Shown here in pieces: positions 1,222 to 56,835 of a DNA stretch of 64,000 bases. Under the pieces are notes generated by a model. It saw nothing but the letters and a program-made list of their open reading frames with translations, was not told the origin of the DNA and did not search any database. The translations under genes were made by a program, and so were the position numbers. The first letter of the stretch is position 1. Each line of letters opens with the position of its first letter. The stretch is from Octopus vulgaris (lineage: Eukaryota), in NCBI GenBank assembly GCA_951406725.2, contig OX597834.1:12152001-12216000 (forward strand). The letters are read 5' to 3'.

Positions 1222-1226
<5 letters not shown>

Positions 1227-1750
1227 AAATACTTTCGACATATGTTTCTTTGCTTCAATAGAGAAATCTACTTCCGAGCCTTTGAAAATTTTTCAACCAA
1301 TATATATCCCTCTTTTTTTATTCTCTACTTATTATTTCTTTACCCCTTTTCTTCCTAGTGTCTGCTTTTAAAGTCAAATCTACTAACGAGTTTAAAAAAA
1401 ATACTTAATGGCGTTCTGTTTATCATTTATGTAGTCATCAAAATTGTTATGTCTTCTTGTTGAGATAGGTTCTCTTTCTTTCCTGATGAGAAGATTGCAT
1501 TTTACATCCGTTTATTCTTTGGAATAAAACCAATGTTGTCTTCGAAACATATGTCGAAAGTAAAAGAATTTGAATAAGATCTGCGATCAACTCCATTTAT
1601 TTACTTATACTACACAAATTACTGCACATTAACCCAGAGTTTCTACCTTTGAATAGTTCATCCGTGTTACTTGCGTGAATTTTGCTACCCTGGTAACTGT
1701 TTATTGAATTTTCCATGTTAACGGTAAACAAAGTATAATTCATTCATCCA
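1222..1750 (+). mobile_element. Putative Penelope-like element terminal repeat / retrozyme-like island between microsatellites
   Basis: Bounded by (TA)n and (CA)n. Contains an intact minimal hammerhead (1478-1560) and a 19-nt inverted copy of its 3' part at the left end (1230-1248). Confidence 0.6.
1478..1560 (+). ncRNA. Type I minimal hammerhead ribozyme, intact core
   Basis: Stem I CTTTC(1478-82)/GAAAG(1556-60); core CTGATGA 1483-89; stem II closed by GAAGA(1490-94)/TCTTC(1539-43); GAAA 1544-47; palindromic stem III ACATATGT; GUC triplet 1553-55 with predicted cleavage after C1555. Confidence 0.85.
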
Positions 1751-1794
1751 TTTACACACACACACACACACCCACATATATATATCTATATGTG

Positions 1795-1939
1795 TGTGTG
1801 ATAAGGAGCTTGCTTCCCAACTACATGACTCCGGGTTCAATCCGACTGCGTACCATCATGAGGAGGTGTATTCTACTATATCCTCGGGCCGACCAAAGCC
1901 TTGTCAGTGGATTTGTAGGCAGAGAATAGAAGCCCGTCG

Positions 1940-1972
<33 letters not shown>

Positions 1973-2168
1973 GTATGTATTTCTGTGTGTCTGTGTTTGT
2001 CTGCCCTTCATCGCTTGACAACGGATGCTGCTGTGCTTATGTCCCTGTAACCTAGCGCTTCAGCAAGAGATCGATAGAATGAGTCCAGGTGTCGATTTCT
2101 TCGCCTAATGCCCTTATTACCCATGCCACAGTCAAATGAGTGAACCAAGTAAAAGAATAAAAGAATAA
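1795..2168 (+). mobile_element. SINE family A, diverged
   Basis: B-box gggttcaatcc, ggccgaccaaagcc, internal (TA)n, cagtcaaatga..aagtaaaagaataaaag tail. Confidence 0.8.
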
Positions 2169-2204
2169 TAGGCTACACACACACATATATATATATATAT
2201 ATAT

Positions 2205-2595
2205 TCTATTTTACTCTTACTTGTTTCAGTCATTTGACTGTGGCCATGCTGGTGCACCGCCTTTAGTCAAGCAAATCGACCCCAGGACTTATTACATGTA
2301 AGCCTAGTACTTATTCTATCGCTCTCTTTTGCCGAACCGCTAGGTAACGGGGACATGAACACACCAGCATCGGCTGTCAAGCGATGTTGGGGGGACAAAC
2401 ACACACACACATATATATATATACATATCCACGACAGGTTTCTTTCAGTTTCCATCTACCAAATCCACTCACAAGGCTTTGGTCGGCCCGAGGCTATAGT
2501 AGAAGACAGCTGCCCAAAGTGCCACGCAGTGGGGCTGAACCAGGAACGATGTGGTTGGTAAGCAAGCTACTTTAGCACACAGCCACTGATGCACC
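2205..2595 (-). mobile_element. SINE family A
   Basis: Reverse complement of the family A consensus, near full length. Confidence 0.9.
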
Positions 2596-3259
2596 TATAT
2601 ATGTGTGTGTGTGTTTGATTACACATGGTTACACGCGTATGGCCAGAAACTACTTCCAATACGTACTGTAAATCTTCACCCGTTTCTATATGCTTCCATC
2701 ATATCAGAAAGTGACGTGCCAAAGTTTGAAAGAACAATTTGAAAATAATATCCAGAGACCAAACAAACATAAAATAAGAATGTGAAGCATAAATCCATAA
2801 ACGGTTTTTATAGATTTACATAAAATACATATTCAAATGAGAGAATAGCAATACGAAATGATGTTTTAAACAAACATGAATTCAAATGACTTTTAATAAT
2901 AGCTATAACGTTACTCAAAAAATAAATGATTGAAGATGTACGTAACAAACAAGATACTACTTCACATTTGTTTTTACCCATAAATAATGAAACTTAGGGA
3001 TATGAATTAATTCAGTATTTAAATTAGTTATGCTTATTTGAATTCTTCGGTGTTAATTATTCAAACTACAAACAAATTTGTCATCAGGAATTGAATTTAA
3101 TTTAGTAGAAGTTTTTCACTGGGACAAATATATTTAGTTATTTAGTTAGTTTTGTTAGTTATCTTTTCAAAGTATTCGTTGTTTTATGCAACCGTTATAA
3201 AAGTTTTAATTTCGAAAGTATACATTATACTCAATTTGTTGCATATTTTGCGTTTTTAT

Positions 3260-3330
3260 TGATTGATTGATTGATTGATTGATTCTAGTTTCAGCTTATG
3301 AGCTGTGGCCATGCTGGGGCACCGCCATTA
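3260..3330 (-). mobile_element. Short LINE-like 3' end sharing its tail with SINE A
   Basis: Minus strand taatggcggtgccccagcatggccacagctcataagctgaaactag followed by (AATC)n; second copy at 38185-38242. Confidence 0.55.
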
Positions 3331-3508
3331 TTTACAAATTTTTTTTTTTTTTTTTTTTTGCTTTTATGTCATTTGCAAAATGTGTGATTCGCAGGATTAC
3401 ATTCGTCAAGTTGTACTTGTGGAACTTTTGTGACATGTCACACACATCGAATCAGACACCTGACCGAAGCATTAATTAATTTTAATTTCTTCATCCTCAT
3501 GCCGCTTT

Positions 3509-3683
3509 GGCGCAGGAGTGGCTGTGTGGTAGGTAGCTTGTTTACCAACCACATAGTTCCGGCTTCAGTCCCACTGCGTGGCACCTTGGGCAAGTGTCTT
3601 CTACTATAGCCTCGGGCCGACCAAAGCCTTGTGAGTGGATCTGGTAGACGGAAACTGAAAGAAGCCCGTCGTATTTATGTATG

Positions 3684-3714
<31 letters not shown>

Positions 3715-3925
3715 GTGTGTGTGTTTGTCCCCCTAGCATTATTTGACAACCGATGCTGGTGTGTTTATGTCCCCGTCACTTAGCGGTTCGGCAAAAGAGA
3801 CCGATAGAATAAGTACTGGGCTTACAAAGAATAAGTCCCGGTGTCGGTGTCGAGTTGCTCGATTAAAGGTGGTGCTCCAGCATGGCCGCAGTCAAATGAC
3901 TGAAAGAAGTAAAAGATTAAAAGAG
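3509..3925 (+). mobile_element. SINE family A, full length (tRNA-derived head, internal TA/TG microsatellite, stem-loop tail)
   Basis: ggcgcaggagtggctgtgtggtag (A-box-like), ttcagtccc (B-box-like), CORE-like gcaccttgggcaagtgtctt, tail cagtcaaatgactgaaa..taaaagag; about 20 copies in the window. Confidence 0.9.
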
Positions 3926-5100
3926 TATGCCTTTCCTCCTCCTCCTCCTCTTTTTCTTACTCCTCGCCCTCCACCTATTTCTGCTCCGCATGCTCCTCTC
4001 CCCCCCCCTAAGCTACACCCTTCCGTCTCCTTCCCCTCATCATCTTCTTCCACATCATCATCATCATCATCATTACAATCGTCGTCGACACAAAGACAAC
4101 AGTCAAAATAATAACAATAGTAGCAGTTTTGAATTTTACGATAATCAAAACATGCAAGAACAATAGAAAATTAATTAAATGATAAACATTTTTGATGAAG
4201 AGTTATGATTTAAATTCGTGTACTATTGAGTCCTTTGTGATGTTTCACTTTGATCCGTAACCATTAATGTTTGTCCGATAAATGAAACCAGGATAGATCG
4301 CTAAACTTCACTATTTGTTTTTAAGTGATTTACCGCGATCGAGTTACGATTTATATATTCTTTATTAAATAATTATAATTAAAGGCAAAAGAAAGATTTC
4401 TGTGCCAGTATGCTGAGAAATAGACTTTAAATCGTCAATCACCACATACAATATACAACACTATAAATGCACAACGTGCTGAATCGAGGAAAGCAAGCTA
4501 ACGGAATTTTTTCGCATCTGTTATCTCTGAATTGGAACGATTTCTAGATTAATCGAAAGGATTTTTCTTTCTTCAGCAGAGAACACGATAAGAAATAAAT
4601 GAAATACTTACAAGCACCCACGGAAAAGCAGAAGCAAAGTCATGAGTACATCTAAGTACCCCAAATATATCTAAATAGAAATTCCGTAGCAAGCCTCAAC
4701 ACACGTGTAATCGGTCAGGAAACACAACTTAGAGTGGTTACCAGGCCTGAAGTGAATGGTAATAAATTTAGTTGTAATATAGAATAAATTTTTTTTCAAA
4801 CATTTCATCAGGTATTTTAATATGCTGGCCACTGATGAAAATTTTTGCAAAAAATGTTATCCTATATTAGAAGTAAATTTATTCTTTGTTAAATTTAGTC
4901 ACAGTTTATTACTATAGCGATATTTACATGCTTGGTCTTCCTACTCGAAGGGAAGACGCAGTGTATCTCCTGGTGATTGCCATTTGTTGCTGGTATCTCT
5001 TTCGTTTATCAGAAGGAACATTTAAATAAAATTTCTGCAAGCAATTTGAAATTCTAGTGCAAGATATTTTCAAATAATAATAATAATAATAATAATAATT

Positions 5101-6132
5101 GTCCAGAAAAAGGGGGGGCGATATTTGATCACTTGCCACGGTTGTATCGAAGCAGAGGAAAAGAAAAAGAGCCTAGGGTGGTATATAAAAAATGACGTGG
5201 AGCCAGTGTTGAAACACATGAAGAAGGCCGGAGTCAGCAAAATCAAAAACTGTGTAACTAAAGAAAAAATCTAACAAGAAATGAAGAAAAAGAGGGAAAA
5301 AAAAAACGCATGGTAAGAAAAGAAAAATTACGGTCAAATTGCAAAGAGATGTGAAAGTCAAATCAGATACAGAGTACCTGTGGCTATGGATAAGGTGGAG
5401 TGACCAGAAGATAGAGACAAAAGCACTGGAACAAGCGTTAAGGACCAATTATATGAAGTGCAGAATAGACAACACTACCGTTAGCGACAAAAGTAGAATG
5501 TGCGATTAGAGGGATGAAATGGTATGGTACATCGTTAGAAAATGCCCGAAATTGACACAATGGCGAATACAAAAGACCCCATGACAATGTGGCAAGAATG
5601 ATCCAATGGGAATTCTGTGGAAATCCCAGCCTATAAAGAGCAAACTCGTGCTCCAGAATGAGTCGCCGAATATGAGAATTGCAAAATCCAGTAGGATTCA
5701 ATGATCGTATGCGAACACCCGGCTAGACATATTATTTGTGAATGAGAAAGGAAGAACATGTATGATAACCGACATACCATGCCCCGTTGACAACAGGATC
5801 AGTGTGAAAGAAGAAAAAAAACTATGACGATTCGAAGTGAGGTATACGAAGATTGTGACCTATAAAGAGTGTACACGTGATACTAATAATAACTGATGCC
5901 CTTGGAAATGTCAGCACTGAACTTCCAGCATGGCTGAAAAACATCGGTGCAAGTGTGAAGATAAAATCACCTGCAAAAATCAGCATTGCTTGGAACTGCA
6001 AGAATTTTTCATAGGGTATTATGACCAGTAAACAAGTGTCACCTAAATCTGCTGGCTGTTGGCGGCTGACACTTTCCATAATACCAACCAAAATAAGTTG
6101 TGAGTTTTCATGTAATAATGATAATAATAATA
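5101..6132 (+). mobile_element. Decayed R4/Dong-type (RLE) non-LTR retrotransposon, 5'-truncated
   Basis: Broken frames read RKRGGR..SLGWY, EQALRTNYMKCRID..RMCD..IVRKCPKL (decayed zinc knuckle), EYKRPHDNVARMIQWEFC, LDILFVNEK..DIPCPVDNRISVKEEKK, and LQKSALLGTARIFHRVL*. Bracketed by (TAA)n at 5073-5099 and ~6113-6132. Confidence 0.85.
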
Positions 6133-10915: not shown

Positions 10916-10917
<2 letters not shown>

Positions 10918-11313
10918 CGCAGGAGTGGCTGTGTGGTAAGTAGCTTGCTAACCAACCTCATGGTTTCGGGTTCAGTCCCACTGCGTGGCATCTTGGGCAA
11001 GTGTCTTCTGCTATAGCCCCGGGCCGACCAATGCCTTGTGAGTGGATTTAGTAGACGGAAACTGAAAGAAGCCTGTCGTATATATGTATATATATATATA
11101 TGTATGTGTGTGTCTGTGTTTGTCCCCCTAGCATTGCTTGACAACCGATGCTGGTGTGTTTACGTCCCCGTCACTTAGCGGTTCGGCAAAAAGAGACCGA
11201 TAGAATAAGTACTGGGCTTACAAAGAATAAGTCCCGGGATCGATTTGCTCGACTAAAGGCGGTGCTCCAGCATGGCCGCAGTCAAATGACTGAAACAAGT
11301 AAAAGAGAAAGAG
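10916..11313 (+). mobile_element. SINE family A, full length, near consensus
   Basis: Complete head to tail match with 3509-3925. Confidence 0.92.
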
Positions 11314-16228: not shown

Positions 16229-16634
16229 TGTATATATATATATATATATATATGTACAAAAATATAAGGAGTGGCCATAATAAGACATTCGACTCACTAG
16301 AAAGAGCAGCCAAACTCAAACCGCTAATAGTTGTAATTCTGAAGTTGAAAGAGAAAGAAAAACGTTTACCCCTTTCATCACTGGACTATGCATATTTTCG
16401 GCAAACTTTAGTAAACAAATTAATTAAATTAAATTAAATTTATTTACTACTGGCGTGCCTCGTCAGCAGAGAAGCCAAGGACGAGCATATATCCACGAGG
16501 CGATAGTAAGGAAGCCTCCAGTCTATATGCTATAAATTTTCAAAATCTACCGCAATCGCGCGGTCTTCTCAGCTGCAAATATAAACTGCTGATTTAATTT
16601 CAAAATTAGCCAAAAAATCATTAATTAACCCTTA

Positions 16635-16687
<53 letters not shown>

Positions 16688-18360: not shown

Positions 18361-18444
18361 GTGGTGGCGGTGGTGGTTGGGGGTGGGTATTTTGGTCGTG
18401 GTGCAGGTCGTAGCGATAATGATTGTAATAATTACGATGATAAT

Positions 18445-18617
18445 GGCGTAGGTGTGGCTGTATAGTAAGTAACTTTCTTACGAACCACATCGTTCCGGGT
18501 TCAGTCCCACTGCGTGGCACCTTGTGCAGGTGTCTTCTACTATAGCCTTGGGCCGTCCAGAGTCTTGAGAGTGGATTTGGTAGACGGAAACTGAAAGAAG
18601 CCCGTCGTGTATGTATG

Positions 18618-18660
<43 letters not shown>

Positions 18661-19003
18661 CCGCTAAGTTACAGGGACATAAACACACCAGCATCGGTTG
18701 TCAAGAGATGTTGGGGGGACAGACACAAACATACACACACACACATATATATACGTATATATATATATATACACACACATATGTATGTATGTGTCTGTTT
18801 GTCCACCCAAAAAACCTCTCTTGACAACCAATGCTGGTGTGTTTACGTTCCCGTAACTTAGCGGCTCGGCAAGAAAGGCCGATATAATAAGTACTAGGCT
18901 CACAAAAGAATAAGTCCTGGAGGTCGATTTGCTCGACTAAAGGAGGTCCTCCAGCATGGCCGGCCACAGTGAAATGACTGAAACAAGAAAAAGACTAAAA
19001 GAG
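18445..19003 (+). mobile_element. SINE family A with an internal inverted duplication
   Basis: Head at 18445; 18661-18735 is the reverse complement of 18790-18864; normal tail to 19003. Confidence 0.85.
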
Positions 19004-19401
19004 TGATAGTGCTATTGTTATTGTTGTTGGTAGTAGCGATGATTATAATTTTAATGATGAAGATGGTAGTAACGTCTGTATATGATATGTTTATGGCGGA
19101 CCCATTGTTCGATCGTAATGATGAAGGCGTTGATGATAACAGTTATGACAGTTTTGTGATAAACTAGACAGTCACAATGTTTTATTACAGTGTTGTATAT
19201 TATATTGCAGCATAGAATACACAATCATGAACGCGTCTGTAATTATGTAGCCTGCAAATAATTATTCCAGAACTTTCTTCCAAAATTCATGTGAAATATA
19301 TGACAACAATGATCATAACTACCGTTAACTAATTTAGCTCATAAAACTGAAACAGTAACACCGATAATGCTGCAGTGTAGTCTTCTAAAATATATATATA
19401 T

Positions 19402-19563
19402 GGCGTAGGAGTGGATGTGTGGTAAGTAGCTTGTTTACCAACCACATGGTTCCGGGTTCAGTCCCACTACGTGGCACCTTGGGCAAGTGTCTTCTACTAT
19501 AGCCTCGGGCCGACCAAAGCCTTGTGCGTGGATTTGGTAGATGGAAACTGAAAGAAGCCCGTC

Positions 19564-19600
<37 letters not shown>

Positions 19601-19825
19601 TGTGTGTGTTTGTGTGTCTGTGTTTGTCCACCTAGCATTGCTTGACAACCGATGCTGGTGTTTATGTCCGCGTTACTTAGCGGTTCGGCAAAACAGACCG
19701 ATAGAATAAGTACTGGGCTTACTAAAGAATAAGTCCCAGGGTCGAGTTGCTCGATTAAAGGCGGTGCTCCAGCATGGCCGCAGTCAAATGACTGAAACAA
19801 GTAAAAGAGAGAGAGAGAAAGAGAG
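19402..19825 (+). mobile_element. SINE family A, full length
   Basis: Consensus match. Confidence 0.9.
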
Positions 19826-20714: not shown

Positions 20715-20810
20715 AAATTTAATCCAAACAAGAAAACACAGAAAAAAACACAGCAACGCGAGGACGTGGAACAATTAAAGTATTATTTGACGCTCAGGAA
20801 AGAAGGGAAG

Positions 20811-20812
<2 letters not shown>
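20715..20812 (-). mobile_element. Fragment of the hammerhead-like family seen at 55128-55325
   Basis: aatccaaacaagaaa..aacgcgaggacgtggaacaa..gacgctcaggaaagaa is the reverse complement of 55228-55320; embedded in (TA)n. Confidence 0.75.
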
Positions 20813-20858
<46 letters not shown>

Positions 20859-20859
<1 letters not shown>

Positions 20860-21072
20860 TCTTTACTGTTTTACTTGTTTCAGTCATTTGACTGCGGCCA
20901 TGCTGGAGCACCGCCTTTATTCGAGCAAATCGACCCCGGGACTTATTCTTTGTAAGCCCAGTACTTACTCTATCGGTCTGTTTTGCCGAACCGCTAAGTG
21001 AAGGGGACGTAAACACGCCAGCATCGGTTGTCAAGCAATGCTAGGGGGACAAACACAGACACACACACACAC

Positions 21073-21107
<35 letters not shown>

Positions 21108-21270
21108 GACAGGCTTCTTTTCAGTTTCCGTCTACCAAATACACTCACAAGGCATTGGTCGGCCCGGGGCTATGGCAGAAGACACTTGCACAAGATGCCA
21201 CGCAGTGGGACTGAACCCGGAACCATGTGGTTGGTTAGCAATCTACTTACCACACAGCCACTCCCGCGCC
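20859..21270 (-). mobile_element. SINE family A, full length
   Basis: Consensus match. Confidence 0.9.
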
Positions 21271-22464
21271 TTTATATATATATATATATATATTCAGATG
21301 AATATGGTACTTAATTTGAGGCACCAGAATTTGGTACGGTATTATCCATACAATTTCAAAGCCAGGTGATTAAAATCAAAATAAGCAACAAGGATATCCA
21401 GAGGTAATGCAGCTGTTTAGGTTGTTGCCGTATTACCCCTGCATTACCTGTGGATCCTCTTGTTGCTACTTTTCTTTGATAAAACAGCTGGTTATATGTA
21501 TGAGTTGAAGTCATGTAAGTGACTATTGATGTAACGGTAGATAGCATTGTCAGTTACTAGAAGAGAGTGATGACCCTAGTGACATAATAAAGAGAGCCAG
21601 ACAGTGTCATATACACGTTTAGTGTTGAAGACAGAAATTGTGTGAGTGACATATACGAATAGTGAAGTATTTATACTTTCAAAACAGGTAATGGTATAAA
21701 TTTCCTGTGCTTCAGGAGACATTTTTCAAAGTGGCTTCGCTTCTTGATGAACTGATCTGACATTTCGTCTGAAGCTGTGTGAAGTGTCTCGAGGATAAGG
21801 TTCCTGTCATCTCTACATAATCCGATATATTTATTCTAATTTCAGAATCAACTGCGTATTTCATGGAACTAACGACTGATGGAGGAATCTGAGGCTTGTG
21901 TGTTTCTGGTTTAGAGAAACAGAGTTAATTACACATAATTATTTTTTTTCCTTTCGTGTTTTCAATATTTTTCGAGAAATACTTATAACTGATGAAAATC
22001 ATTTTCTTTTTTTCTCTTTTAAAATTTATCTTGTAACATACATATACATCATGGCGTATATTTTGGTTTAGTGTGTTGCGGTAATTTCTTATTCGTTGAT
22101 AATAACTTGAAAATTGCATGACTAATTAAGAACCATACATTTCGAATTTCGATTTTTTTAAAACTTAAAATCGTGGAATTTAGTTATTTTGCTTGATAAT
22201 GTTTTTTTTTCTCTTAAATTTTGCTTCTAGAGATGTAACTCATGATAAATTTATTTCTATTGAATAATTTTATATCGCAACTATTGGTAAAATTTCAGTT
22301 ATCGAGGTTGTGATATTTTGAGAATATCAGGTCTAATGTTTACGTAAAGATCAATGCAGCTCTCAAAAAAAAAGTTTGTACAGCGTCCTTTTCATTTTCT
22401 GCCAATCTACTTATTTATATATAATATATACTTGTGTGTCTCGAAGTAGATACAGCTTTTTTTT

Positions 22465-22638
22465 CTTTTATTTGTTTCAGTGATTTGACTGCAGCCATTC
22501 TGGAGCACCGCCTTTAGTCGAGCAAATCAACCCCAGAACTTATTCTTTGAAAGCCTATCGGTCTCTCTTGCCGGACCGCTAAGTGACGGGGATGTAAACA
22601 CACCAGCATCGTTTGTCAAGCGATGCTGGTGGGGACAA

Positions 22639-22682
<44 letters not shown>

Positions 22683-22842
22683 GATGGGCTTCTCAAAGCT
22701 TCCGTCTACCAAATCCACTGACAAGGCTTTGGTCGCCCCGAGGGTATAGTAGAAACTTGCCCAAAGTGCCACGCAGTGGGACTGAACCCGGAATCACGTG
22801 GCTGGTAAACAAGCTACTTACCGCACAACCACTCCTGAACCT
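22465..22842 (-). mobile_element. SINE family A flanked by a 32-bp direct repeat
   Basis: Consensus match; flanks 22426-22457 and 22850-22881. Confidence 0.85.
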
Positions 22843-23786: not shown

Positions 23787-25727
23787 TATGTATATGTCAT
23801 ATACATATATGTATTAATACGTACTCCTATATGTATATATATAAATATAAACACACATATATTTTATATATCATATACATATATGCTTATGTATATGAAT
23901 ATATATATATTAATACGTACTTGTATATGTATATATGTTTATATATATACGCTTAGTTACTCACTTCCTATTTCCATATGGATAATTTCTGATGGCTGCA
24001 GATAAAGATATCCGACTTGAAATGAAGCTTAGAGATAACTCGTAGGGAGGTCATAGGTTAACATGTGCTGTCTGAGATATTAGTCAGACTGGGTGAGTGC
24101 TACAACTATATTAGCAAATGAAATAATAGACACAATAATATAAATAATATTTAAAAGTTATTTAAAAAAATAAAAGTTAACAATAGTCTCAATTATAATA
24201 TTGATTCCTTAGATAAATGAAGTGATCGAAACAATCATAAATTCAAGATAAAAGGTAATATTTAGACAATATATTCGTTCATTTCCAATGTATTTTTTAA
24301 GCTCAATTATGTTTCTCTGTTAGGTTTCCTTGTATCATATTTCACACGTATATGAACATAATATAACATATCCATTCGCATGTGCTTACGAACATACCAC
24401 TTACATATACATACATGCACACACACATATATACATATATATATAAATGTATATATGTGAATGGTTGTGTGTTTGCATATGTGTACGCACACACATATAT
24501 ATTAAGAAACATGTGCAATTACAAAATGCGTGGATGTACGCCATGTTAAACGCCCACTCGCTTTAACAACTTTCATAAATGAAATTCAGATGGCGTCAAT
24601 CAATTTTACATGATATAATAGTATTTATACAATCTCATTCGTAAATATTTTTCTCTTATATTAATAGCATGCTGGTGATTGATATGGTCTTACATAGACG
24701 GCGAATATAAACAGACAATACACGTGACAACCCTCGCTTACGATTTTATTTGAGATATCCAATAACTAGGGGAGAAAAATGGCTGTATAAGCAAAACCAA
24801 AAAAAAAAAAAAAAAAAATATAGAATAGCATCACAAATTTATTTTTGAAAATTATTAAGAAACTACTTTAAGATCTTAAGAGAATCTTGACTGATATATG
24901 ATAGCCTGGAATTCTAACACTATACAAACATTTCAGTCATATTGATATCTTTAAGTCCAATTTTTTTGGTCAGTCCATGTTAGAGAGAATTTGCAAGTAA
25001 ACGAATAGAGAATGGTAAAACATTGATGTTCTTTAAAAAAAAAAATCAGGCAAAATAATCGTTGAAATGAAAGAAGATTCCGATTTAAAATTAACGCAGC
25101 AATAATATTTCAGTTAAATATTTGTTCAATAAATAGCTTCAATAATGGACAAGACTATCAACTCTCCAAGTTTGATTTTATACATTATTTCACATCAATT
25201 ACCAGTCTTTTATTTCAAAATGCATTAACATTCGAATGCAATCACAATCCCATTAGTGAATCCGATATTAAAATCATTATACATGCAAGAAATGTACCGT
25301 CATCAATCAAAAATCCAATGAGAATAACGACAAATGACATTTCTTCTTTTGATGTTTGTATGAGTTGTGGTAGTTCTTGATGTTGTTATCCTAATAGACG
25401 CCTAATTTTGTTGTACCATTTGATGAAGCCGAATGGATTCAGCTCAAATGATTTGAAATATTAAATTTGCATCGAGAAAAACAGTTTAGAAGAGTATTTA
25501 ACAAGCCATTGAAAATATGGTTCCATGTTGATAAAGCTGTTCAGTTCTCATGGGTTGAAACGATACGTCAGAATTTTGAAATTCACAGTCATAAGCTGTT
25601 TTGAACAGCCGCGGTCTATTACGATGGATGTCTCCAAACCACCATATTCTCATCATCATTCGCCTCTCATGAAAAGCTGTTAGGTTATATATATACATAT
25701 GAATGTATGCATATATGAATATATATG

Positions 25728-26210
25728 CGTAAGAGTGGCACGGTGGTAAGTAGCTTGCTTACGAACCACATGGTTCCGGGTTCAGTCCCACTGCGTGGCA
25801 CCTTCGGCAAGGATCTTCTAATATATATTTCTTTATTGCCCACAAGGGGCTAAACATAGAGGGGACAAACAAGGACAGACAGAAGGATTAAGTCGATTAC
25901 ATCGACCCCAGTGCGAAACTGGTACTTTATTTATCAACCCCGAAAGGATGAAAGGCAAAGTCGACCTCGGCGGAATTTGAACTCAGAACGTAAGAGCAAT
26001 CGAAATACCGCTAAGCATTTCGCCCGGCGCGCAAACGTGTCTGCCAGCTTCGGAACAACAGCCTTGTGAGTGGATATGGTAGACGTAAACAGAAAGAAGC
26101 CCGTCGTATAAATACTAGGCTTACAAAGAAAAAGTCCTGGGGTCAATTTGCTCGACTAAAGGCGGTGCTCCAGCATGGCCACAGTCAAATGACTGAAACA
26201 AGTAAGAGAG
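25728..26210 (+). mobile_element. SINE family A interrupted by a family B insertion
   Basis: A head 25728-25820, A resumes at ~26058 (gccttgtgagtgg) and runs to the tail. Confidence 0.8.
25827..26049 (-). mobile_element. SINE family B, single unit with head
   Basis: Minus strand agctggcagacacgtttgcgcgccgggcgaaatgcttagcggtatttc, B-box gagttcaaattcc, gtcgactttgcctttcatcctttcgggg, tail ccccttgtgggcaataaagaaata. Confidence 0.9.
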
Positions 26211-31326: not shown

Positions 31327-31329
<3 letters not shown>

Positions 31330-31569
31330 AAAATGGTTGGTAAAGTATAATTCTATATTATTTATACCGATCTAATTCCGAAACGCGCGTCCATGGATGA
31401 CCAGATATTGATTGATTTTCGTTACGTTTCCTTTCTGCCTGTGTGGATTGTTTTCAAGTATTTTGGTTTCTCTGGGAGTCCCTTTTTAAAGTAGAAGAAA
31501 TAGCTAAGGCTGCCATTTCTAAACTTCGTTATGTGGTAAAGCAAATCTTTGCTGAACCCTAATTATTAA

Positions 31570-31570
<1 letters not shown>
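31327..31570 (+). mobile_element. PLE-terminus-like island in (TA)n with the 3' half of a hammerhead
   Basis: gga..tcc-closed stem, then GAAACGCGCGTC; downstream part matches the right arm of the 43682-43925 palindrome. Confidence 0.6.
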
Positions 31571-31598
<28 letters not shown>

Positions 31599-31600
<2 letters not shown>

Positions 31601-31995
31601 TCAATAAATGGTGGGGTTGTGTTGACCGCACGTGGAGAAATGATAAGTAAGGAAAAATAAGAACACAACACATGCTCTTAATCCCTTTGGATCTTAACAC
31701 CTCAAGGTAATTTTTTCGTGAACAACCATAAAACTCAAGATACACAACGAACTCACAATGTATCGGAGAACTTATTTTTTAATTTTTGTACATTTTTATC
31801 ATTATTCTTTTACAAAAAACAATGCAATTTTCTTTTTTTCCCCTTTCTAATTTTTAAAAAAACTTTTTAAAACATAAATATTCTTGACAAGTCATACAAT
31901 GACGAAAACCGGTTGAATAAATATATATTTATATATTTTATCAATTTCTCATTTTATTAAAATTTTCTTTCATTTGAGTATTCTGCATTTAAAAA
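31599..31995 (+). mobile_element. PLE-terminus-like island in (TA)n with a degenerate hammerhead (31879-31919)
   Basis: TATTC TTGACAA GTCAT-ACA-ATGAC GAAA ACCGGTT GAATA, followed by AATAAA. Confidence 0.55.
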
Positions 31996-33593
31996 AAATT
32001 TTTTCCTTACTTATATATATATATATATATAAATTGAAAGCAGCCCGTCGTATGTGTATGAATAATATATGTATATAAAATATAAAAAAATAAACAAAAT
32101 AATTACTGCAGTGGATATATTCAACTAAAAGGTCTTGAAAGCGGTGCCCCAGGATCGCTACATATAAAAGATATAAGCAGGGAAATAACCTTCTTACACT
32201 TGTTTAGCAAAGGTTTCAAGAAAACAACCCATTTCCGACCCCCGACCCCAAACCTAACCGAAAGGTTTCAGGTTTTGGTAAAACGTCATCGACACTGAAA
32301 GAATAAAAGGAAAAGTCGTCAAGAGTGGAATTTGAACTCAGAACTTCAACATGTCGTTGAAATGATGCTAAGTAATTCTTTCATCTCGCTAATAGTCACG
32401 TGAACTTGTCACGTTCTCTAACCAAATATTCGTTTGTAATTTTGTCATAATGTTAGCGTTTTTGGTCGAGGGTTTTCTTTGATCAAATCAATTCCAGTGT
32501 TCAACTGTCACTTGTTTTATCGACTCCAAGTGGACGAAAGGCGAAGACGACCTCATCGTAATTGGAACTAAGAACGTGCAAAAGGACCAAATAAAACCCT
32601 AAACATTTTGCGCAGCGAACAAACAATGTTAACAGCTAACCGCCTTTCACCACCCTAACATTGAAGCTAAACGAACAGGTTGCAAGTTACTCAAATGTAT
32701 GAAGAATTGAAACAGTTACCAATCATACAATTATCGTTTGTCGTTGGATAATTGGCAGAAGGAATACAGTGTACCACAATATTGATCGTGTTCGCAACAA
32801 GTGCGATTAAGGACGGAGATAATTCCAGAATAAATAAAAGCTGGAGCTGTTGCCTCAGTTGCAACGCAGTTAATTAATTACACATACACCTGTGAACAAA
32901 AGTTGGTTTGTTAACGACAAAACGAATATAAACCAATCAATAGTTTTGCTAATTGTTTTATTTAAAATTTTGTTTGCAGTGCGTGTATCAGTGATTTTGT
33001 TTCGTTCTGAACAAGAGCAAGTGTTACAGCGTAAAACATGAGTTGGTAAAATGCAGTACAGTCAAGTTGATTGACACCAGAAAGATGAAAGTGTTAAATA
33101 TGTTCCTTCGTAGAAGTTGAGTACAGAGCATACAACGTCTGAAGTTGTAATCTTCCCGCTTCTCTTTCCAACACCTCACTTTGTATGGTATTCTTATATG
33201 TTATTAATTAATGTATAACTTGTTTCTTAATCCAATTCAATAACTAAATACATCATTTTAAATTGTGAAATTAACAGCTCGAATGGTGAAAAGAGTTTGA
33301 ATTGAAAGTCTTTCACAAAGAGCAAAATAATGGCAAGAATAACGTAGATGTATAATCGATCACATCGAAATAATGTATACTGACACAGACATGTAGAACG
33401 TCATATGAGTCATAACTGTGGTGAAACTTTGGTGGCTCGGGTGTCTCAGAATATTCGGGGTTGGAACTAATTGTTAATGATGCTTAAGTGTATCGTTATA
33501 AATCTGAGAGGGCACCATTGAATAGTATGAGGGCCGTGCCGTCCAATGCACCACCTTAGCGACGGGCATGAGAAAATTATTGGTATGGATTTT

Positions 33594-34191
33594 CTATTTC
33601 TTTTACTACCCACAAGGGGCTAAACACGGAGGGGACAAACAAGGACAGACATAGGTATTAAGTCGATTACATCGACCCCAGTGCGTAACTGGTACTCAAT
33701 TTATAGACCCCGAAAGGATGAAAGGCAAAGTCGACCTGGGCGGAATTTGAACTCAGAACGTAACGGCAGACGAAATACGTATTTCTTTATTACCCACAAG
33801 GGGCTAAACATAGAGGGGACAAACAAAGACAGACATAGGTATTAAGTCGAATACATCGACCCTAGTGCGTAACTGGTACTTAATTTATCGACTCCGAAAG
33901 GATGGAAGGCAAAGTCGACCTCGGCGGAAATTGAACTCAGAACATAACGGCAGACGAAATACGTATTTCTTTATTACCCACAAGGGGCTAAACAGAAGGG
34001 ACAAACAAAGACAGACATATGTATTAAGTCGAATACATCGACCCTAGTGTGTAACTGGTACTTATTTTATAGACACCGAAAGGATGAAAGGCAAAGTCGA
34101 CCTGGGCGGAATTTGAACTCAGAACGTAACGGCAGACACTACGGCTACGCATTTCGCTCGGCGTGCTAACGTTTCTGCCAGCTCGACGCCT
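33594..34191 (-). mobile_element. SINE family B concatemer: one head plus three ~184-bp bodies
   Basis: Units start at 33594, 33779 and 33963; junction gaaatacgtatttc; single head at 34140-34191. Confidence 0.9.
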
Positions 34192-34392
34192 ATACCGTTA
34201 TGGACATTTCCCTTGCAATGTAATGTTTCATATGTGGCACACCGAATCGATGCTTAGCAGGCGAAAAGACTTATTTAAATAAAAGTGTAGCAAATAACAT
34301 TTTAAAGTGGAAATACGTTTTATTTATGTTTAAATGTAAAGAAAACTCAGAGTAGTAATTGAGACAGAAGCTTTCTTGAATTTGGGACTGTA

Positions 34393-34733
34393 CTCTTTTA
34401 CTTCTTTCGGTCATTTGACTGCGGCCATGATGGAGCACCGCCTTTAGTCAAGCAAATCGACTCCAGGACTTATTCTTTTTAAGCCCAGTACTTATTCTAT
34501 CGGTCTCTTTTGCTTGGGGGGACAAACACGGACCCACAAACATACACATATATATATATATACACATTTACGACAAGCTTCTTTCATTTTTCATCTACCA
34601 AATTCGCTCATAAGGCTTTGGTCGGCTCGAGGCTATAGTAGAAGACACTTGCCCAAGGTGCAACGCAGTGGGACTGAACCCAGAACCATGTGGTTGGTAA
34701 GCAAGCTACTTACCGCACAGCCACTCCTGCGCC
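34393..34733 (-). mobile_element. SINE family A with internal deletion
   Basis: Consensus match. Confidence 0.88.
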
Positions 34734-38529: not shown

Positions 38530-38530
<1 letters not shown>

Positions 38531-38761
38531 AGGCTGTGTAGATATTGTAACATTTATAGATGTTATAATATCTACACAGCCTTGGCTTTTTATCTCGTTA
38601 CGCAAAAAATTCTTATATACACATGCTGACAAAGAACCAAAGTTGAACCCATTTTTGGCAAAATTACCGAACCTGAAAGTTAACTATGGTCTGTCTATAG
38701 CACTTATCCAGCATTACCTGACACCTTTGGGTCTCAATTACACCATTACCTATTATAACCT

Positions 38762-38765
<4 letters not shown>
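38530..38765 (+). mobile_element. (TA)n-embedded island starting with a 54-nt hairpin; possible PLE remnant
   Basis: aaggctgtgtagatatt..aatatctacacagcctt hairpin 38530-38583; downstream frame contains LTPLGLN, similar to PLE endonuclease C-termini. Confidence 0.4.
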
Positions 38766-40274: not shown

Positions 40275-41411
40275 TATTCCACTCTAGGCACAAGGTCGGA
40301 CATTTTTGTTGGGCGGGGGAGGTCAGTCGATTAGATCGACCCCAGTACGCCACTGGAACTTCAGTTATCGACCTCGAAAGGATAAAAGGCAGATTCGACT
40401 TCGGCGGAATTTGAACTCAGCACGTAAAGACAGACGAAATACCTATTTCTTTACTATCCACAAGAGGCTACACGTAGAGGGGACATACAAGGACAGACAA
40501 ACGGATTAAGTCGATTATATCAACCCCAGTGCGTAACTGGTACTTATTTAATCGACCCTGAAAGAATGAAAGGCAAAGTCGTCATCGGCGGAATTTGAAC
40601 TCAGAACATAAAGACAGAAGAAATACCTATTTCTTTACTTCTCACAAGGGGCAACACGCAGAGGGGACAAACAAGGACGGACAAACGGATTAAGTCGATT
40701 ATATCGACCCCAGTGCGTAACTGGTACTTATTTAATCGAGCCTGAAAGAATGAAAGGCAAAGTCGTCATCGGCGGAATTTGAACTCAGAACGTAAAGACA
40801 GAAGAAATACCTATGTCTTTACTGCCCACAAGGGGCTACACACAGAGGGGATAAACAAGGACAGACAAACGGATTAAGTCGATTATATCAACCCCAGTGC
40901 GTAACTGGTACTTATTTAATCGACCCTGAAAGAATAAAAGGCAAAGTCGTAATCGGCGGAATTTGAACTCAGAACGTAAAGACAGAAGAAATACCTATTT
41001 CTTTATTGCCCACAAGGGGCTACACACAGAGGGGACAAACAAGGACGGAGAAACGGATTAAGTCGATTATATCGACCCCAGTGCGTAACTGGTACTTATT
41101 TAATCGACCCCGAAAAGATGAAAGGCAAAGTCGACTTCAGCGGAATTTGAACTCAGCACGTATCGCAGACGGAATACCTATTTCTTTATTACCCACAAGG
41201 GGCTAAACACAGAGGGGACATACAAGGACAGACAAACTGATTAAGTCAATTACATCGACACCAGTTCGTAACTGATACTTGTTTAATCAACCCCGAAAGG
41301 ATGAAAGGCAAAGTTGACCTCGACGGAAATTTGAACTCCGAACGTAGCAGCAGACGAAACACGGCTACGCATTTCGCCCTGCTTGCTAACGTTTCTGCCA
41401 GCTCGCCGCCT
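40275..41411 (-). mobile_element. SINE family B concatemer: one head plus six bodies
   Basis: Unit starts at 40443, 40627, 40811, 40995 and 41178 (period 183-184); junction gaaatacctatttc; distal unit 40275-40442 has a different tail; single head 41360-41411. Confidence 0.92.
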
Positions 41412-42884: not shown

Positions 42885-42957
<73 letters not shown>

Positions 42958-42960
42958 TAA

Positions 42961-43205
42961 ATTAAATTAGAGATAAAGCCACTATTAGGCAAATCATACA
43001 ATGAAAAACTTAAGCCAATACATAAGATTATTTAACTTAATATAAATTAAATAATCCTATGTATTGGCTTAAGTTTTTCATTGTATGATTTGCCTAATAG
43101 TGGTTTTATCTCTAATTTAATATAACATAATATTTTACTATAAAATTGGATTGAATCCTAAATCTGATTTTCCCTGTAAGTTTGAATTTATACCCTAATA
43201 TTTGT
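42961..43205. mobile_element. (TA)n-embedded fold-back element (75-bp arms, 11-nt loop) with a one-sided extension
   Basis: 42961-43035 vs 43047-43121, two mismatches. Confidence 0.75.
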
Positions 43206-43229
43206 TTATATATATATATATATATATAG

Positions 43230-43557
43230 TCTGTTGTGTCTGGGGAGAATCGTTTTCTTTTTGTGCATTATAATTTAACACACTTACCGGTAAAATTTAA
43301 ACTTATTCCTTATTTTTATTTTTCCTAAAATTTTCGTTGTGTCTTGCAACGTTTTCAAGAGTCAAAACTATTGCAAAGGTTGCAAGACGAAACGAAAATA
43401 TTAGGAAAATGAAAATAAGAAATACGTGGAAGTTTCACCGGTGAGTGTGTTAAATTTTAAGGCACAAAAAGAAAATGACTCTCCTCAGACACAACAGAAT
43501 ATACTTAAACACACGAACTCACATAAAGAATCTTGCAAACCAAATCCCAAAACGAAA
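43230..43557. mobile_element. (TA)n-embedded fold-back element (~130-bp arms) with a one-sided extension
   Basis: tctgttgtgtctggggaga..gtcttgcaac / gttgcaagac..cagacacaacaga; same family at 56631-56835. Confidence 0.8.
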
Positions 43558-43580
43558 TATATATATATATATATATATAT

Positions 43581-43925
43581 AATAAAAAAGGGTAAAATTA
43601 ATTAATTAAGAAGTAATCAGTAATTTCACCAAGTAGAATTCGGCATGAAAAAGACCATTTCATGGTAAGCTTAAGTAATAATTTATAATTAGGGTTCAGC
43701 AAAGATTTGCTTTACAACATACCAAAGTTTAGAAATAGCAGTCAAAAACATTTGCTATTTCTTCTACTTTAAAAGGGACATCCAGAAAAACGTAGATTGT
43801 TTTCAAGTACTTTGGTTTTTTCTGGGAGACTGTTTTAAAGTAGAAGAAATAGCAAAGGTTTTTGACTGCTATTTCTAAACTTCGGTATGTGGTAAAGCAA
43901 ATCTTTGCTGAACCCTAATTATAAA
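43581..43925. mobile_element. (TA)n-embedded fold-back element (arms 43682-43925) with a one-sided extension
   Basis: ataattagggttcagcaaagatttgc.. / ..gcaaatctttgctgaaccctaattat; related to 31327-31570 and 51950-52220. Confidence 0.8.
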
Positions 43926-43973
<48 letters not shown>

Positions 43974-46989: not shown

Positions 46990-47155
46990 AGGGAAAATTC
47001 ACAAAAGACTAAGAAAGTTAGTGTAGACAACAAACACATGTATTAGCTTAAAGCTCGGGAAGTGAAAAAAGTCTTTAATGTTTCGAGCCTATGCTCTTCC
47101 TCAGAATGGAACAAAGAAAGAAACAAGGAGAGAAAATGAGGAGCGAAAAAAATAT
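46990..47155 (-). mobile_element. (TA)n-embedded repeat with a hammerhead-like core
   Basis: Minus strand CTGAGGA A GAGC-ATAG-GCTC GAAA C (47104-47080); homologous to 54905-55087. Confidence 0.6.
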
Positions 47156-51907: not shown

Positions 51908-51944
<37 letters not shown>

Positions 51945-51949
51945 TACAC

Positions 51950-52220
51950 AGATAAAGGGTGAAAGATAATTAATTTAATAAAATCAATAAATTTCACCTA
52001 GTAGTATTTCGGTATGGAAAAGGACCATATTCGCTAAACATTTATAATATAAGTGTTTATGCAACCACACCGAAAATATTTGAAATAGCAGTCAAAGGAC
52101 TACTATTTCTTTGACTACTATTTCTTGTAGTAAAAGAAATAGTAGTCCTTTGACTGCTATTTCTAATATTTTCGGTATGTGGTTTAAGCAACTTGTTGCA
52201 AAAAACCCTTATTATTATAA
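51950..52220. mobile_element. (TA)n-embedded fold-back element (arms 52063-52184)
   Basis: Shares the aagggt..aatttcacc.agtag..ttcgg.atg.aaaa.gaccat leader and gaaatagcagtcaaa arm with 43581-43925. Confidence 0.75.
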
Positions 52221-52251
<31 letters not shown>

Positions 52252-54904: not shown

Positions 54905-55087
54905 GGAGTTCACGAAAAAAAAACAAAAGATAGGTGGTGTACAAAAAAAAAGAATTAGTATAACGCTCAGGAATAGAAAAAGACTTTCACGTTTCGAGCC
55001 TACGCTCTTCTCTAGAAAGGGACACAGAAAAAAAGGAAGAAACAAGGAGAGGAAAAAATGTGTGTGGTGGCTAACGATCTATCATGA
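54905..55087 (-). mobile_element. Repeat with a degenerate hammerhead-like core
   Basis: Minus strand CTTT CTAGAGA A GAGC-GTAG-GCTC GAAA CGT G AAAG (55019-54984). Confidence 0.6.
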
Positions 55088-55127
55088 CATATACACACAC
55101 ACACATATATTTCAAAATGTGACCTCA

Positions 55128-55322
55128 TGTGTACCGTTGGCGATTTTTATTCCCCTGTCTTCCCTTCCCTGGATCTTTCCTTCTCCTAAGTTTCCGACGG
55201 AGAGCTCCGCTCGAAACGTTAAACTCTCCTTCTTCCATTCTTTCCTGAGCGTCCATTAATACTATATTTGTTCCACGTCCTCGCGTTGTTGTGTTTTTTT
55301 GTGCTTTCTTGTTTGGATTAAC

Positions 55323-55325
<3 letters not shown>
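55128..55325 (+). mobile_element. Sister repeat with a degenerate hammerhead-like core
   Basis: AGTTT CCGACGG A GAGC-TCC-GCTC GAAA CGTT AAACT (55189-55225); ends in (TA)n. Confidence 0.6.
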
Positions 55326-55358
<33 letters not shown>

Positions 55359-55885
55359 TACATACATACATACATACGTACGTACATACACACACACATA
55401 TACATGCATATATTAATACGCAAGCTAAGAGACAGCGAGAGAGTGAGTGTTTGAACGAAACTCTGTGATAAATAAATAGATTGATATGCAGCCTGAGAGT
55501 AAATGCAGCACCATTCTATGATCCGTATTCTCTGATCGATGTTTATATATGTATATTTGTTCTGATATTACACAGTTGTATATTTAGCAATGGGTCATTC
55601 AGAGGAAACCGCCTTGCCATCAACTACGAGAATGTTAGCAGCTCACATGAATCACAACAAGAGAAGAAAAGATGATGTTTAGAAACCAATATTCATATGT
55701 GAAATTATGAGATTCTGTACAGTATATTAGCATGGGTAGCTGTGATCATTTGTAAAGATGCGCATTTATATTTATATATGAGCGTAGTAACACATCCATT
55801 AGATGTAAAAAATCAGTCATTTCCATGATGGGTATAAATATGGCTATGCCTATGTGCATACAATCTCTCTCTTTCACACACACAC

Positions 55886-55918
<33 letters not shown>

Positions 55919-56354
55919 TATATGTATATATATATGTATACTTATCTATATATGTATATATATATATGTATATATATATAAGCACATGTATATATATATG
56001 TATATATGTGCGTGTATATATACATATATAAATATATATACACATATATATGCGTATATATAACAACAACAACAATAATAATAATAATAATAGTCAGAAT
56101 CATTATTATTATTATTATTTACTTTTAATCAGCATGTTTGTTACAATCAATTGCCAAGACACACCTAGCATCCTAGGGGGAGTGAACGATAAAAGATGTT
56201 ACAGTATGACTGAAAGATTAGTGAGCACAAGTGGCAGGGGCAGTAGCGAAACGGCTTCATGTAATACAACACAGACATTTACCTTGATAAAGTAAGTACC
56301 AGTTGAACACCGGAGTCGGTGTAATCGGCTAATCATATTCCTCGAAATTCCTCT

Positions 56355-56580
56355 CTGGCTTTGCCGCACCTCCATTACTTCTGCCTATGATCAGAGATGC
56401 ACATATCGTCAGCCACTAAGGGACATGGTCAACTGGTTAGGGTCAAACAATTGACAAACAAACCTGTGGTATTGAGCAGAATATTTGCTGTGGCCCACAT
56501 TTTACACCAAGACACATCATGTACATGATAATATTTCCAATCAAGAAAAGATGAGAAGCCATGAGAGCCACTGCCTCGCT
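56355..56580. mobile_element. Probable interspersed repeat fragment, unclassified
   Basis: GC-richer block next to (TAA)n that resembles a repeat recalled from octopus assemblies; only one copy in this window. Confidence 0.3.
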
Positions 56581-56630
56581 CTATTATCTACAATAATATT
56601 AATAATAATAATAATAATTATAATAATAAT

Positions 56631-56835
56631 TTGGTTTGGAGATTTGGTTTGCAAGATTCTTTATACGAGTTCGTGTGTTGAAGCATATTCTGTTGTGTCT
56701 GGGGAGAGTCATTCTCTTTTAGTGCCTTAATATTTAACACACTCACCGGTAAAATTTCCATTTAGTTTTACCGGTGAGTGTGTTAAATAATAAGGCACTA
56801 AAAGAGAATGACTCTCCCCAGACACAACAGAATAT
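56631..56835. mobile_element. Fold-back element (70-bp arms, one mismatch, 11-nt loop)
   Basis: 56685-56754 vs 56766-56835; extension 56631-56684 is the reverse complement of 43500-43557. Confidence 0.85.

What the first reader, a model, noticed from the sequence alone, without database searches (positions are those of the whole stretch)
1222..56835. Candidate system: several (TA)n-targeting, ribozyme-bearing fold-back retroelement families
Seen: at least a dozen 100-500-bp islands sit inside or against (TA)n/(TAA)n tracts, with no obvious TSD, tRNA head or intact ORF: 1222, 20715, 21290, 31327, 31599, 38530, 42961, 43230, 43581, 46990, 51950, 54905/55128 and 56631. Six carry hammerhead or hammerhead-like motifs and seven carry inverted or hairpin ends. 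The 31327/43581 family links the two traits. Inference: a diverse population of non-autonomous PLE-derived or retrozyme-like elements uses TA microsatellites as a landing pad and seeds long dsRNA hairpins. Standard annotation would probably leave them unclassified.
Basis: partly seen in the sequence, partly recalled or inferred. Interest (0 to 1): 0.75.

Follow-up and report, generated by a model that had tools for sequence, protein, structure and literature searches.

The report
Penelope retroelement ends in TA repeats
These islands are the clipped ends of ten repeat families sitting in TA microsatellites: five belong to protein-coding Penelope-like jumping genes and two are small non-coding units with a hammerhead-type motif that likely ride on them; all are known kinds, though their mirror-image ends pair in a regular way that likely reflects how they are copied.

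Summary
The islands are real and multi-copy: ten families, 899-3,544 first-look candidates each. Every family has a conserved hammerhead-type motif upstream of a fixed 3' end, and (TA)3 follows that end in 202 of 270 copies (8% in controls). Five families (1222, 20715/55128, 31599, 43230/56631, 46990/54905) run upstream into RT + GIY-YIG Penelope-like (PLE) ORFs, so those islands are 5'-truncated ends of autonomous Hydra-like and Neptune-like elements. Two (31327/43581, 51950) are ORF-less closed units of about 585 and 555 nt, retrozyme-like; a third (about 465 nt) at 16254 was missed. Three (21290, 38530, 42961) have no ORF link found. Fold-backs (111 of 270) are the known PLE inverted 5' copy with a tail at one end. 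In 98 of 111 one arm ends at the family's long end and the other 44-156 nt short of it; either arm may reach further 5', and arms share variants. This fits priming from both DNA ends at two RNA sites (inferred). MITEs are excluded. Cleavage and circular RNA are untested. The anatomy is in print (Craig 2021, Cervera 2014, Frangieh 2024), and this scan noted it before elsewhere in the genome.

The parts
1223..1753 (+). Family A: 5'-truncated 3' end of a Hydra-like PLE; 25-nt inverted arm 1223-1247, sense arm 1248-1753 ending at the long end
1478..1560 (+). Type I hammerhead, canonical CUGAUGA core, long stem II, palindromic stem III; predicted cleavage after 1555
16254..16636 (-).
20716..20813 (-). 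Family B: last 95 nt of a Neptune-like PLE, no hammerhead, no inverted arm
21293..21475 (-). Family C1: sense arm 21412-21293 starting at the predicted cleavage site, 26-nt filler, inverted arm 21439-21475; no ORF link found
31327..31570 (+). Family D (585-nt ORF-less unit): truncated copy with the 3' half of the hammerhead (GAAA at 31380), ends at the short end
31599..32011 (+). Family G: young Neptune-like PLE end (98-99% to other copies); inverted tail arm 31599-31657, sense arm 31658-32011 ending at the short end; U3-A8 hammerhead variant 31880-31918
38530..38763 (+). Family C2: 3' end with short fold-back 38530-38582; family hammerhead lies upstream and is lost here; no ORF link found
42952..43206 (+). 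Family F: fold-back copy without its hammerhead; no ORF link found
43229..43557 (+). Family E: PLE end with inverted arm 43229-43363 and sense arm 43358-43557; damaged U3-A8 hammerhead 43368-43404
43581..43926 (-). Family D: fold-back copy; long arm 43791-43581, short inverted arm 43791-43926; hammerhead lost
46990..47150 (-). Family H: Neptune-like PLE end; minimal hammerhead 47073-47108
51948..52220 (-). Family I (about 555-nt ORF-less unit, related to D): fold-back copy, hammerhead lost
54905..55090 (-). Family H relative (78% to the reference copy), degenerate hammerhead 54984-55020
55110..55322 (+). Family B: 3' end of a Neptune-like PLE with minimal hammerhead variant 55190-55224
56631..56835 (-). 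Family E: fold-back copy in (TAA)n; long arm 56767-56631, short inverted arm 56766-56835

Best explanation
The islands are 3' ends of ten repeat families in TA microsatellites, five joined upstream to RT + GIY-YIG Penelope-like ORFs and two being ORF-less closed units with a hammerhead-type motif, and all were likely inserted by Penelope-like target-primed reverse transcription. Shown: fixed 3' ends, variable 5' ends, TA flanks, conserved hammerhead-type motifs, ORF links for A, B, E, G, H, closed units for D, I (and J), and long/short pairing of the two arms. Inferred: the PLE protein cuts both strands of a (TA)n tract; each DNA end primes cDNA on RNA from one source, one at a distal and one at a proximal start site 44-156 nt apart; both cDNAs stop early and are joined head to head by end joining; if only one arm survives, a plain truncated copy results. 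Inferred: D, I and J RNAs (multimeric or circular) borrow the same enzyme.
For: ORF links on the same strand upstream of the island sequence: A (RT motifs and GIY-YIG in L091, L100, L101), G (633-aa frame, Pfam RVT_1 above cut-off and GIY-YIG below it), B (6 of 7 long loci), E (8 of 25 loci; Pfam GIY-YIG above cut-off), H (RT or EN similarity in 8 of 25). TA flank 202 of 270 against 860 of 10,800 control 16-mers. Cores per family: C3-G8 in A, C1, D, F, with U4C in B and C2, A6U mostly in H, and U3-A8 in E, G, I; related families D and I differ by this C3-G8/U3-A8 swap; D stem I is ACG/CGT in 13 and ATG/CAT in 9 of 28 copies. Closed units: D 5' segment preceded by its own 3' end in 23 of 30, followed by the hammerhead in 29 of 30, unit closing at 579-598 nt in 10 of 30; I 16, 22 and 5 of 25, closing at 526-566; J 7 of 15. 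Arms: 98 of 111 long/short, 4 long/long, 9 other. Short arm reaches further 5' in 40, long arm in 46, tie in 20 of 106; in L006, L018 and the window's G copy the long arm lies almost wholly in the tail. Arms of one insertion share 182 of 492 minor variants against 1,127 of 12,939 between insertions. In vitro a PLE protein cleaves and extends both strands, prefers AT-rich DNA and starts at two sites that bound the tail (PMC11167929, parts 1-2 of 4).
Against: No ORF was found for C1, C2, F, so their PLE dependence rests on footprint alone. No autonomous partner sharing a 3' end with D or I was found among the loci held. Samples are the best 25-30 BLAST hits per family, and for B, C1, C2, D, E, F, I the query held the long end, so sense arms are long by selection; only A and G test both orientations (11 inverted copies). 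PMC11167929 saw no difference in start site between strands in vitro, which does not by itself predict strict long/short pairing. Shared variants could also come from later gene conversion between arms. B and H almost never show inverted arms (1 of 30, 0 of 25). Arm extents come from BLAST ends and are rough at symmetric junctions. Ribozyme activity was not tested; cores of B, C2, H are non-canonical.
Confidence: 0.85

Rival explanations
1. The fold-backs arise by snap-back: one cDNA primed at the long end folds on itself and copies itself back as far as the short end.
For: Arms share minor variants (37% against 9%); some junctions are symmetric hairpins with tiny loops; several family F loci share one palindromic apex (L505, L506, L508, L513).
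Against: The short arm reaches further 5' than the long arm in 40 of 106 copies, and in L006, L018 and window 31599 the long arm is nearly all tail, so the short arm cannot be its copy.
Confidence: 0.1
2. All ten families are independent non-autonomous retrozyme-like elements.
For: True for D, I, J; C1, C2, F have no ORF link; most B hits start within about 20 nt of one point.
Against: A, B, E, G, H continue upstream into RT + GIY-YIG frames; the B start clustering may be query-length bias, since longer copies exist.
Confidence: 0.1
3. They are MITEs or foldback DNA transposons with TIRs and TA target duplications.
For: Inverted ends and TA flanks.
Against: 159 of 270 copies have no inverted arm; arms vary in length, differ by a fixed tail and lie upstream-linked to RT genes.
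Confidence: 0.01
4. Inverted pairs are two separate insertions into the same TA tract.
For: Different families do stack in one tract (31327/31599; 42952/43229/43581).
Against: Stacked families are separated by (TA)n, whereas arms join directly with 1-14 shared bases (39 of 89), none (10) or 1-44 nt of filler (39), one ambiguous (no chance control); arms share variants and pair long/short.
Confidence: 0.03

Closest known systems
C-terminal EN+ Penelope-like elements, Neptune/Nematis type (Craig et al. 2021, PMC8557442; passages, section 11, supplement rows)
   Same: RT then CX2-5CxxC linker then GIY-YIG; 5' truncation; inverted truncated copy at the 5' end; tail at one end; hammerhead; microsatellite targeting.
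   Different: Tails here are 44-149 nt rather than 30-40; B has a 1.5-1.9-kb AC-rich 3' region; clade was judged by motifs, with no tree.
Hydra-clade PLEs, e.g. Hydra-1_Obim (PMC8557442 section 11 and supplement)
   Same: Family A has DKT, GLYRDD-type RT, no CCHH, CxxC and CxH around E and N, canonical hammerhead, (TA)n target.
   Different: A different family from Hydra-1_Obim (two motif look-ups blank; similar by eye only); Asn-rich linker with no CxCX5C seen.
Minimal hammerheads of metazoan PLEs (Cervera and De la Pena 2014, PMC4209133; parts 1-2 of 4)
   Same: Type I, short stem I, palindromic stem III, U3-A8 variant, pairs on opposite strands 100-700 bp apart attributed to truncated PLEs.
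   Different: Several families here have 30-55-nt stem II regions; U4C and A6U cores are family consensus in B, C2 and H.
Metazoan non-LTR retrozymes (PMC7229834, passages; bioRxiv 10.64898/2026.07.22.740005, part 1 of 5 and passages)
   Same: Non-coding AT-rich unit with one type I hammerhead per unit, head-to-tail continuity, proposed PLE origin.
   Different: D, I, J units are 450-590 nt (about 220-390 in the coral, mussel and axolotl cases), dispersed mostly as 1-1.5 units, and carry PLE insertion marks (TA target, tail, inverted arm); circular RNA not shown.
PAc Poseidon element in vitro (Frangieh et al. 2024, PMC11167929; parts 1-2 of 4)
   Same: Both strands cut and extended, AT-rich target, two internal RT start sites bounding the tail.
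   Different: That paper reports no strand difference in start site; the genomic copies here pair one long with one short end.

Membership tests
EN+ Penelope-like element (A, B, E, G, H) | RT followed by C-terminal GIY-YIG on the element's strand | tested here: met
   most frames are interrupted, the longest open one is 633 aa (G)
EN+ Penelope-like element (A, B, E, G, H) | Type I hammerhead near the 3' end | tested here: met
   core, stems and palindromic stem III conserved per family; activity untested
EN+ Penelope-like element (A, B, E, G, H) | 5' truncation, inverted 5' copy, tail at one end | tested here: met
   met for A, E, G; B and H show truncation but almost no inverted arms
EN+ Penelope-like element (C1, C2, F) | Linked RT + GIY-YIG ORF | tested here: inconclusive
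   none found upstream; C1 continues over 2 kb as AT-rich, internally duplicated sequence
Neptune/Nematis clade (B, E, G, H) | CX2-5CxxC linker before GIY-YIG | tested here: met
   seen by eye in translations of L375, L459, L540, L543
Neptune/Nematis clade (B, E, G, H) | RT phylogenetic placement | not tested
   no reference set on hand; G and B RTs align at 24%
Hydra clade (A) | DKT motif, no CCHH, CxxC and CxH around E and N | tested here: met
   by eye in L101 and L091 translations against section 11 of PMC8557442
Hydra clade (A) | CxCX5C linker | tested here: not met
   Asn-rich linker without this motif in L091-L102; A is therefore called Hydra-like
Hydra clade (A) | N-terminal RWK motif | not tested
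   N-terminus not recovered
Non-LTR retrozyme (D, I, J) | ORF-less unit with one type I hammerhead, continuing head to tail | tested here: met
Non-LTR retrozyme (D, I, J) | Two or more consecutive units with complete hammerheads | tested here: inconclusive
   copies inspected are mostly 1-1.5 units; the upstream unit of L106 lacks the 5' half of its hammerhead; no directed search for arrays
Non-LTR retrozyme (D, I, J) | Self-cleavage and circular RNA | not testable with these tools
   only contigs of runs guessed to be RNA were available
MITE | Fixed TIRs at both ends, constant length | tested here: not met

The most novel reading that the evidence does not exclude
PLE insertion is an obligately asymmetric two-ended reaction: one enzyme complex primes both DNA ends on one RNA molecule, one at each of two start sites, and ORF-less 450-590-nt hammerhead circles (D, I, J) are templates for it in vivo. 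This would give direct genomic evidence of how metazoan retrozymes are mobilised and explain PLE inverted repeats and one-sided tails in a single step.
Probability: 0.4. Interest if true: 0.6.

Novelty: new member of a known kind. Interest (0 to 1): 0.36.

Why it matters
As annotation: thousands of short fold-back islands in this genome are PLE ends or PLE passengers and could be mislabelled as MITEs or unknown repeats. As mechanism: Craig et al. 2021 name the origin of PLE tandem/inverted structures and microsatellite bias as open questions. The long/short pairing, the freedom of either arm to be longer and the shared variants constrain the model, and the young family G (633-aa open frame, copies 98-99% alike) with units D, I, J offers natural reagents to test it. 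ORF-less closed units bearing PLE insertion marks support, from footprints rather than phylogeny, the proposal that animal retrozymes depend on PLEs.

Tried and rejected
Rfam scan of the window: the 150 rows shown of 623 are nearly all microsatellite-driven miRNA matches below gathering score, with no hammerhead among them; the other 473 were not seen. The repeat finder was swamped by microsatellites; a masked self-BLAST replaced it. A first hammerhead descriptor missed the family A motif and was rewritten; the rewrite still misses J (loop too long) and the degenerate copies. The family A pattern also counts antisense matches, so its n of 216 is not a copy count. Idea that 5' ends pile up at the cleavage site: the window's C1 copy starts there, but the other 24 C1 loci continue upstream, 23 of them through the site; rejected. 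RNA: no RNA holder listed; contigs of four guessed-RNA runs laid on a D unit show fold-back joints and one longer copy with a genomic flank, and no joint at the unit period; contigs cannot show ends or circles, so this is no evidence either way. The alignment was mis-windowed and not used. Lunse et al. 2017 could not be read; its content is known here only through PMC6765202 passages. One paper search for penelope + twin priming + inverted + tail returned a single unrelated review, and octopus + penelope + hammerhead returned only PMC8557442 as relevant; this is not proof that the pairing rule is unpublished, since older PLE papers (Evgen'ev, Arkhipova, Pyatkov) were not read and supplements of the bioRxiv preprint are closed. 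Repbase and Dfam were not available.
Full report
Setting. The window is 33% GC and dense in (TA)n. It lies in a 2.8-Gb genome of 227 contigs. The animal is likely an octopus; this is my inference from recalled SINE-like repeats and from likeness of family A to a Hydra element described from Octopus bimaculoides, and no call names it.

Observation. Every listed island is present. Masked self-BLAST and reference mapping group them into ten families: A (1222), B (20715, 55128), C1 (21290), C2 (38530), D (31327, 43581), E (43230, 56631), F (42961), G (31599), H (46990, 54905), I (51950). Genome searches gave 899 to 3,544 first-look candidates per family, of which 40 were scored and 25-30 fetched; these are not copy numbers. 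Each family has a fixed end on one side and a variable boundary on the other. (TA)3 lies within 16 nt beyond the fixed end in 202 of 270 copies (A 22/30, B 27/30, D 28/30, E 14/30, C1 13/25, C2 17/25, G 23/25, F 23/25, H 15/25, I 20/25) against 860 of 10,800 control 16-mers and 12.9% of window positions (each set includes the window's own copy).

Hammerheads. Family tallies over all loci held show a type I motif with short stem I and palindromic stem III in all ten: CTGATGA in A, D, F; CTGAAGA in C1 (20 of 26); CCGACGA in B (47 of 73); CCGATGA in C2 (17 of 25); CTGTNGA mostly in H; and U3-A8 cores in I (TTGATAA 26 of 29), G (TTGACAA 10 of 10) and E (TTGAAAA 41 of 45). D and I are related in sequence and differ by the C3-G8 to U3-A8 swap; D stem I reads ACG/CGT in 13 and ATG/CAT in 9 of 28 copies, with 3 G-U, and 3 mismatched. 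These are related copies, so the counts are not independent events. Cervera and De la Pena 2014 describe such minimal PLE hammerheads, the U3-A8 variant and opposite-strand pairs 100-700 bp apart. Most window copies have lost or damaged the motif; only 1478-1560 and 31880-31918 are intact by my descriptor. Cleavage is predicted, not shown.

What lies upstream. A: copies extend into a GIY-YIG frame and, in longer loci, into RT with DKT and GLYRDD-type motifs and an Asn-rich linker; Hydra-like by the criteria of section 11 of PMC8557442 except that no CxCX5C linker was seen. G: a young element with a 633-aa open frame, RVT_1 above cut-off, CX4CxxC linker and GIY-YIG. B: through 1.5-1.9 kb of AC-rich sequence into a Neptune-like frame in 6 of 7 long loci, chosen for their length. 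E: into another linker + GIY-YIG frame in 8 of the 25 loci. H: into a frame 44-56% identical to B's in 8 of 25 loci. D and I instead close on themselves: for D the segment upstream of the hammerhead is preceded by D's own 3' end in 23 of 30 loci, followed by the hammerhead in 29 of 30, and the unit closes at 579-598 nt in 10 of 30; for I the figures are 16, 22 and 5 of 25, at 526-566 nt. No PLE frame precedes them. An unlisted island at 16254-16636 belongs to a third closed unit, J (1,887 candidates, 94-96% identity, closing at 410-469 nt in 7 of 15 loci). C1 extends over 2 kb as AT-rich internally duplicated sequence without a PLE hit; C2 and F share only a few hundred and about 60 nt upstream of the hammerhead. 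These three are unresolved.

Fold-backs. 111 of 270 copies carry an inverted arm joined to the 5' end (A 7, B 1, D 20, E 19, C1 11, C2 11, G 4, F 21, H 0, I 17). Each family has two preferred 3' ends, offset by about 149 (A), 97 (D), 56 (E), 100 (C1), 144 (C2), 44 (G), 74 (F) and 94 nt (I). In 98 of 111 one arm ends long and the other short, in 4 both end long, and 9 fit neither. Queries for most families contained the long end, so the informative result is that the partner arm is rarely long; A and G, queried more neutrally, show both orientations. Craig et al. describe the inverted copy and a 30-40-bp tail often present at one end only, and Frangieh et al. show the tail is the span between two RT start sites and that both strands are cut and extended. 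New from these data: either arm may reach further 5' (long 46, short 40, tie 20 of 106), arms of one insertion share 182 of 492 minor variants against 1,127 of 12,939 between insertions, with mismatch 4.8% against 7.5%, and junctions show short overlaps or filler (rough, no control).

Mechanism. Most likely both ends of a break in (TA)n prime reverse transcription on RNA from one source, one at each start site, and the two truncated cDNAs are joined head to head (inferred). Simple snap-back cannot make copies whose long arm is nearly all tail (L006, L018, window 31599), though it may contribute in F, where four loci share one palindromic apex. D, I and J likely use the same enzyme in trans, since they share target, tail and inversion; more-than-unit copies fit a circular or a multimeric RNA equally well.

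Expression. No run on record as RNA holds the D unit. Contigs of four guessed-RNA runs carry D sequence and fold-back joints, which cannot show circles, ends or strand.

Prior knowledge and verdict. The anatomy is published for PLEs, Hydra and Naiad families with (TA)n preference are listed for octopus, retrozymes are known in a mollusc, a 2026 preprint derives animal retrozymes from PLEs, and an octopus repeat annotation lists 31 recently active Penelope-like families. Earlier notes of this scan report the same mix and the same end-pairing on other pieces of this genome; they are unchecked AI notes, seen after my own counts, and are not independent support. Verdict: real, new members of known kinds; modest interest for the mechanistic footprint.

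Noticed in passing
window 16254-16636 (minus): Unlisted young family J: ORF-less unit of about 450-470 nt with a canonical hammerhead and a 10-nt palindromic loop III, with tandem continuation and inverted arms elsewhere in the genome.
   Followed up: partly
window 33595-34137 and 40325-41346: Tandem arrays of a 184-nt unit (3.0 and 5.6 copies, 90-92% match) of a repeat also dispersed at 25820, 26273 and elsewhere; looks like a common SINE-type repeat (recalled, untested).
   Followed up: no
window 1802-2595, 3508-3926, 10916-11313, 18444-19004, 19402-19805, 20860-21270, 22458-22841, 34388-34733 and others: About 15-20 copies of one roughly 400-nt repeat with an internal microsatellite, resembling an octopus SINE (recalled).
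   Followed up: no
window 4349-4721: Repeat matching 11 stretches in fetched loci at 71-80%, with a CTGAAGA...GAAA motif at 4576 (minus); possibly another degenerate PLE end.
   Followed up: no
window 25523-25570: Descriptor hit with a U3-A8 core; single, not searched in the genome, may be chance.
   Followed up: no
window 31327-32011 and 42952-43926: Different families stack in one TA tract, two and three deep, separated by (TA)n.
   Followed up: partly
L505, L506, L508, L513: Family F copies on four chromosomes fold back at the same short palindromic apex, suggesting a fixed RNA 5' end, a snap-back hot spot or an inherited palindromic master.
   Followed up: partly
L535:6700-7050: Short stretch resembling a Hydra-type linker by eye, then (AAT)n, directly upstream of family C1 sequence; tblastn did not score it.
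   Followed up: partly
L091-L102: Family A ORFs have an Asn-rich linker that in a subfamily has become a pure (AAT)n tract, a frequent 5' truncation point.
   Followed up: no
L023:354-866, L243, L281, L374, L428: Another Neptune-like family, about 60% identical to G in the endonuclease, turns up repeatedly in flanks.
   Followed up: no
window 5725-5924/8866-9069 and 50782-51094/51520-51806: An inverted pair (89%, 200 nt) and a diverged direct pair (66%, 310 nt) of unknown kind.
   Followed up: no
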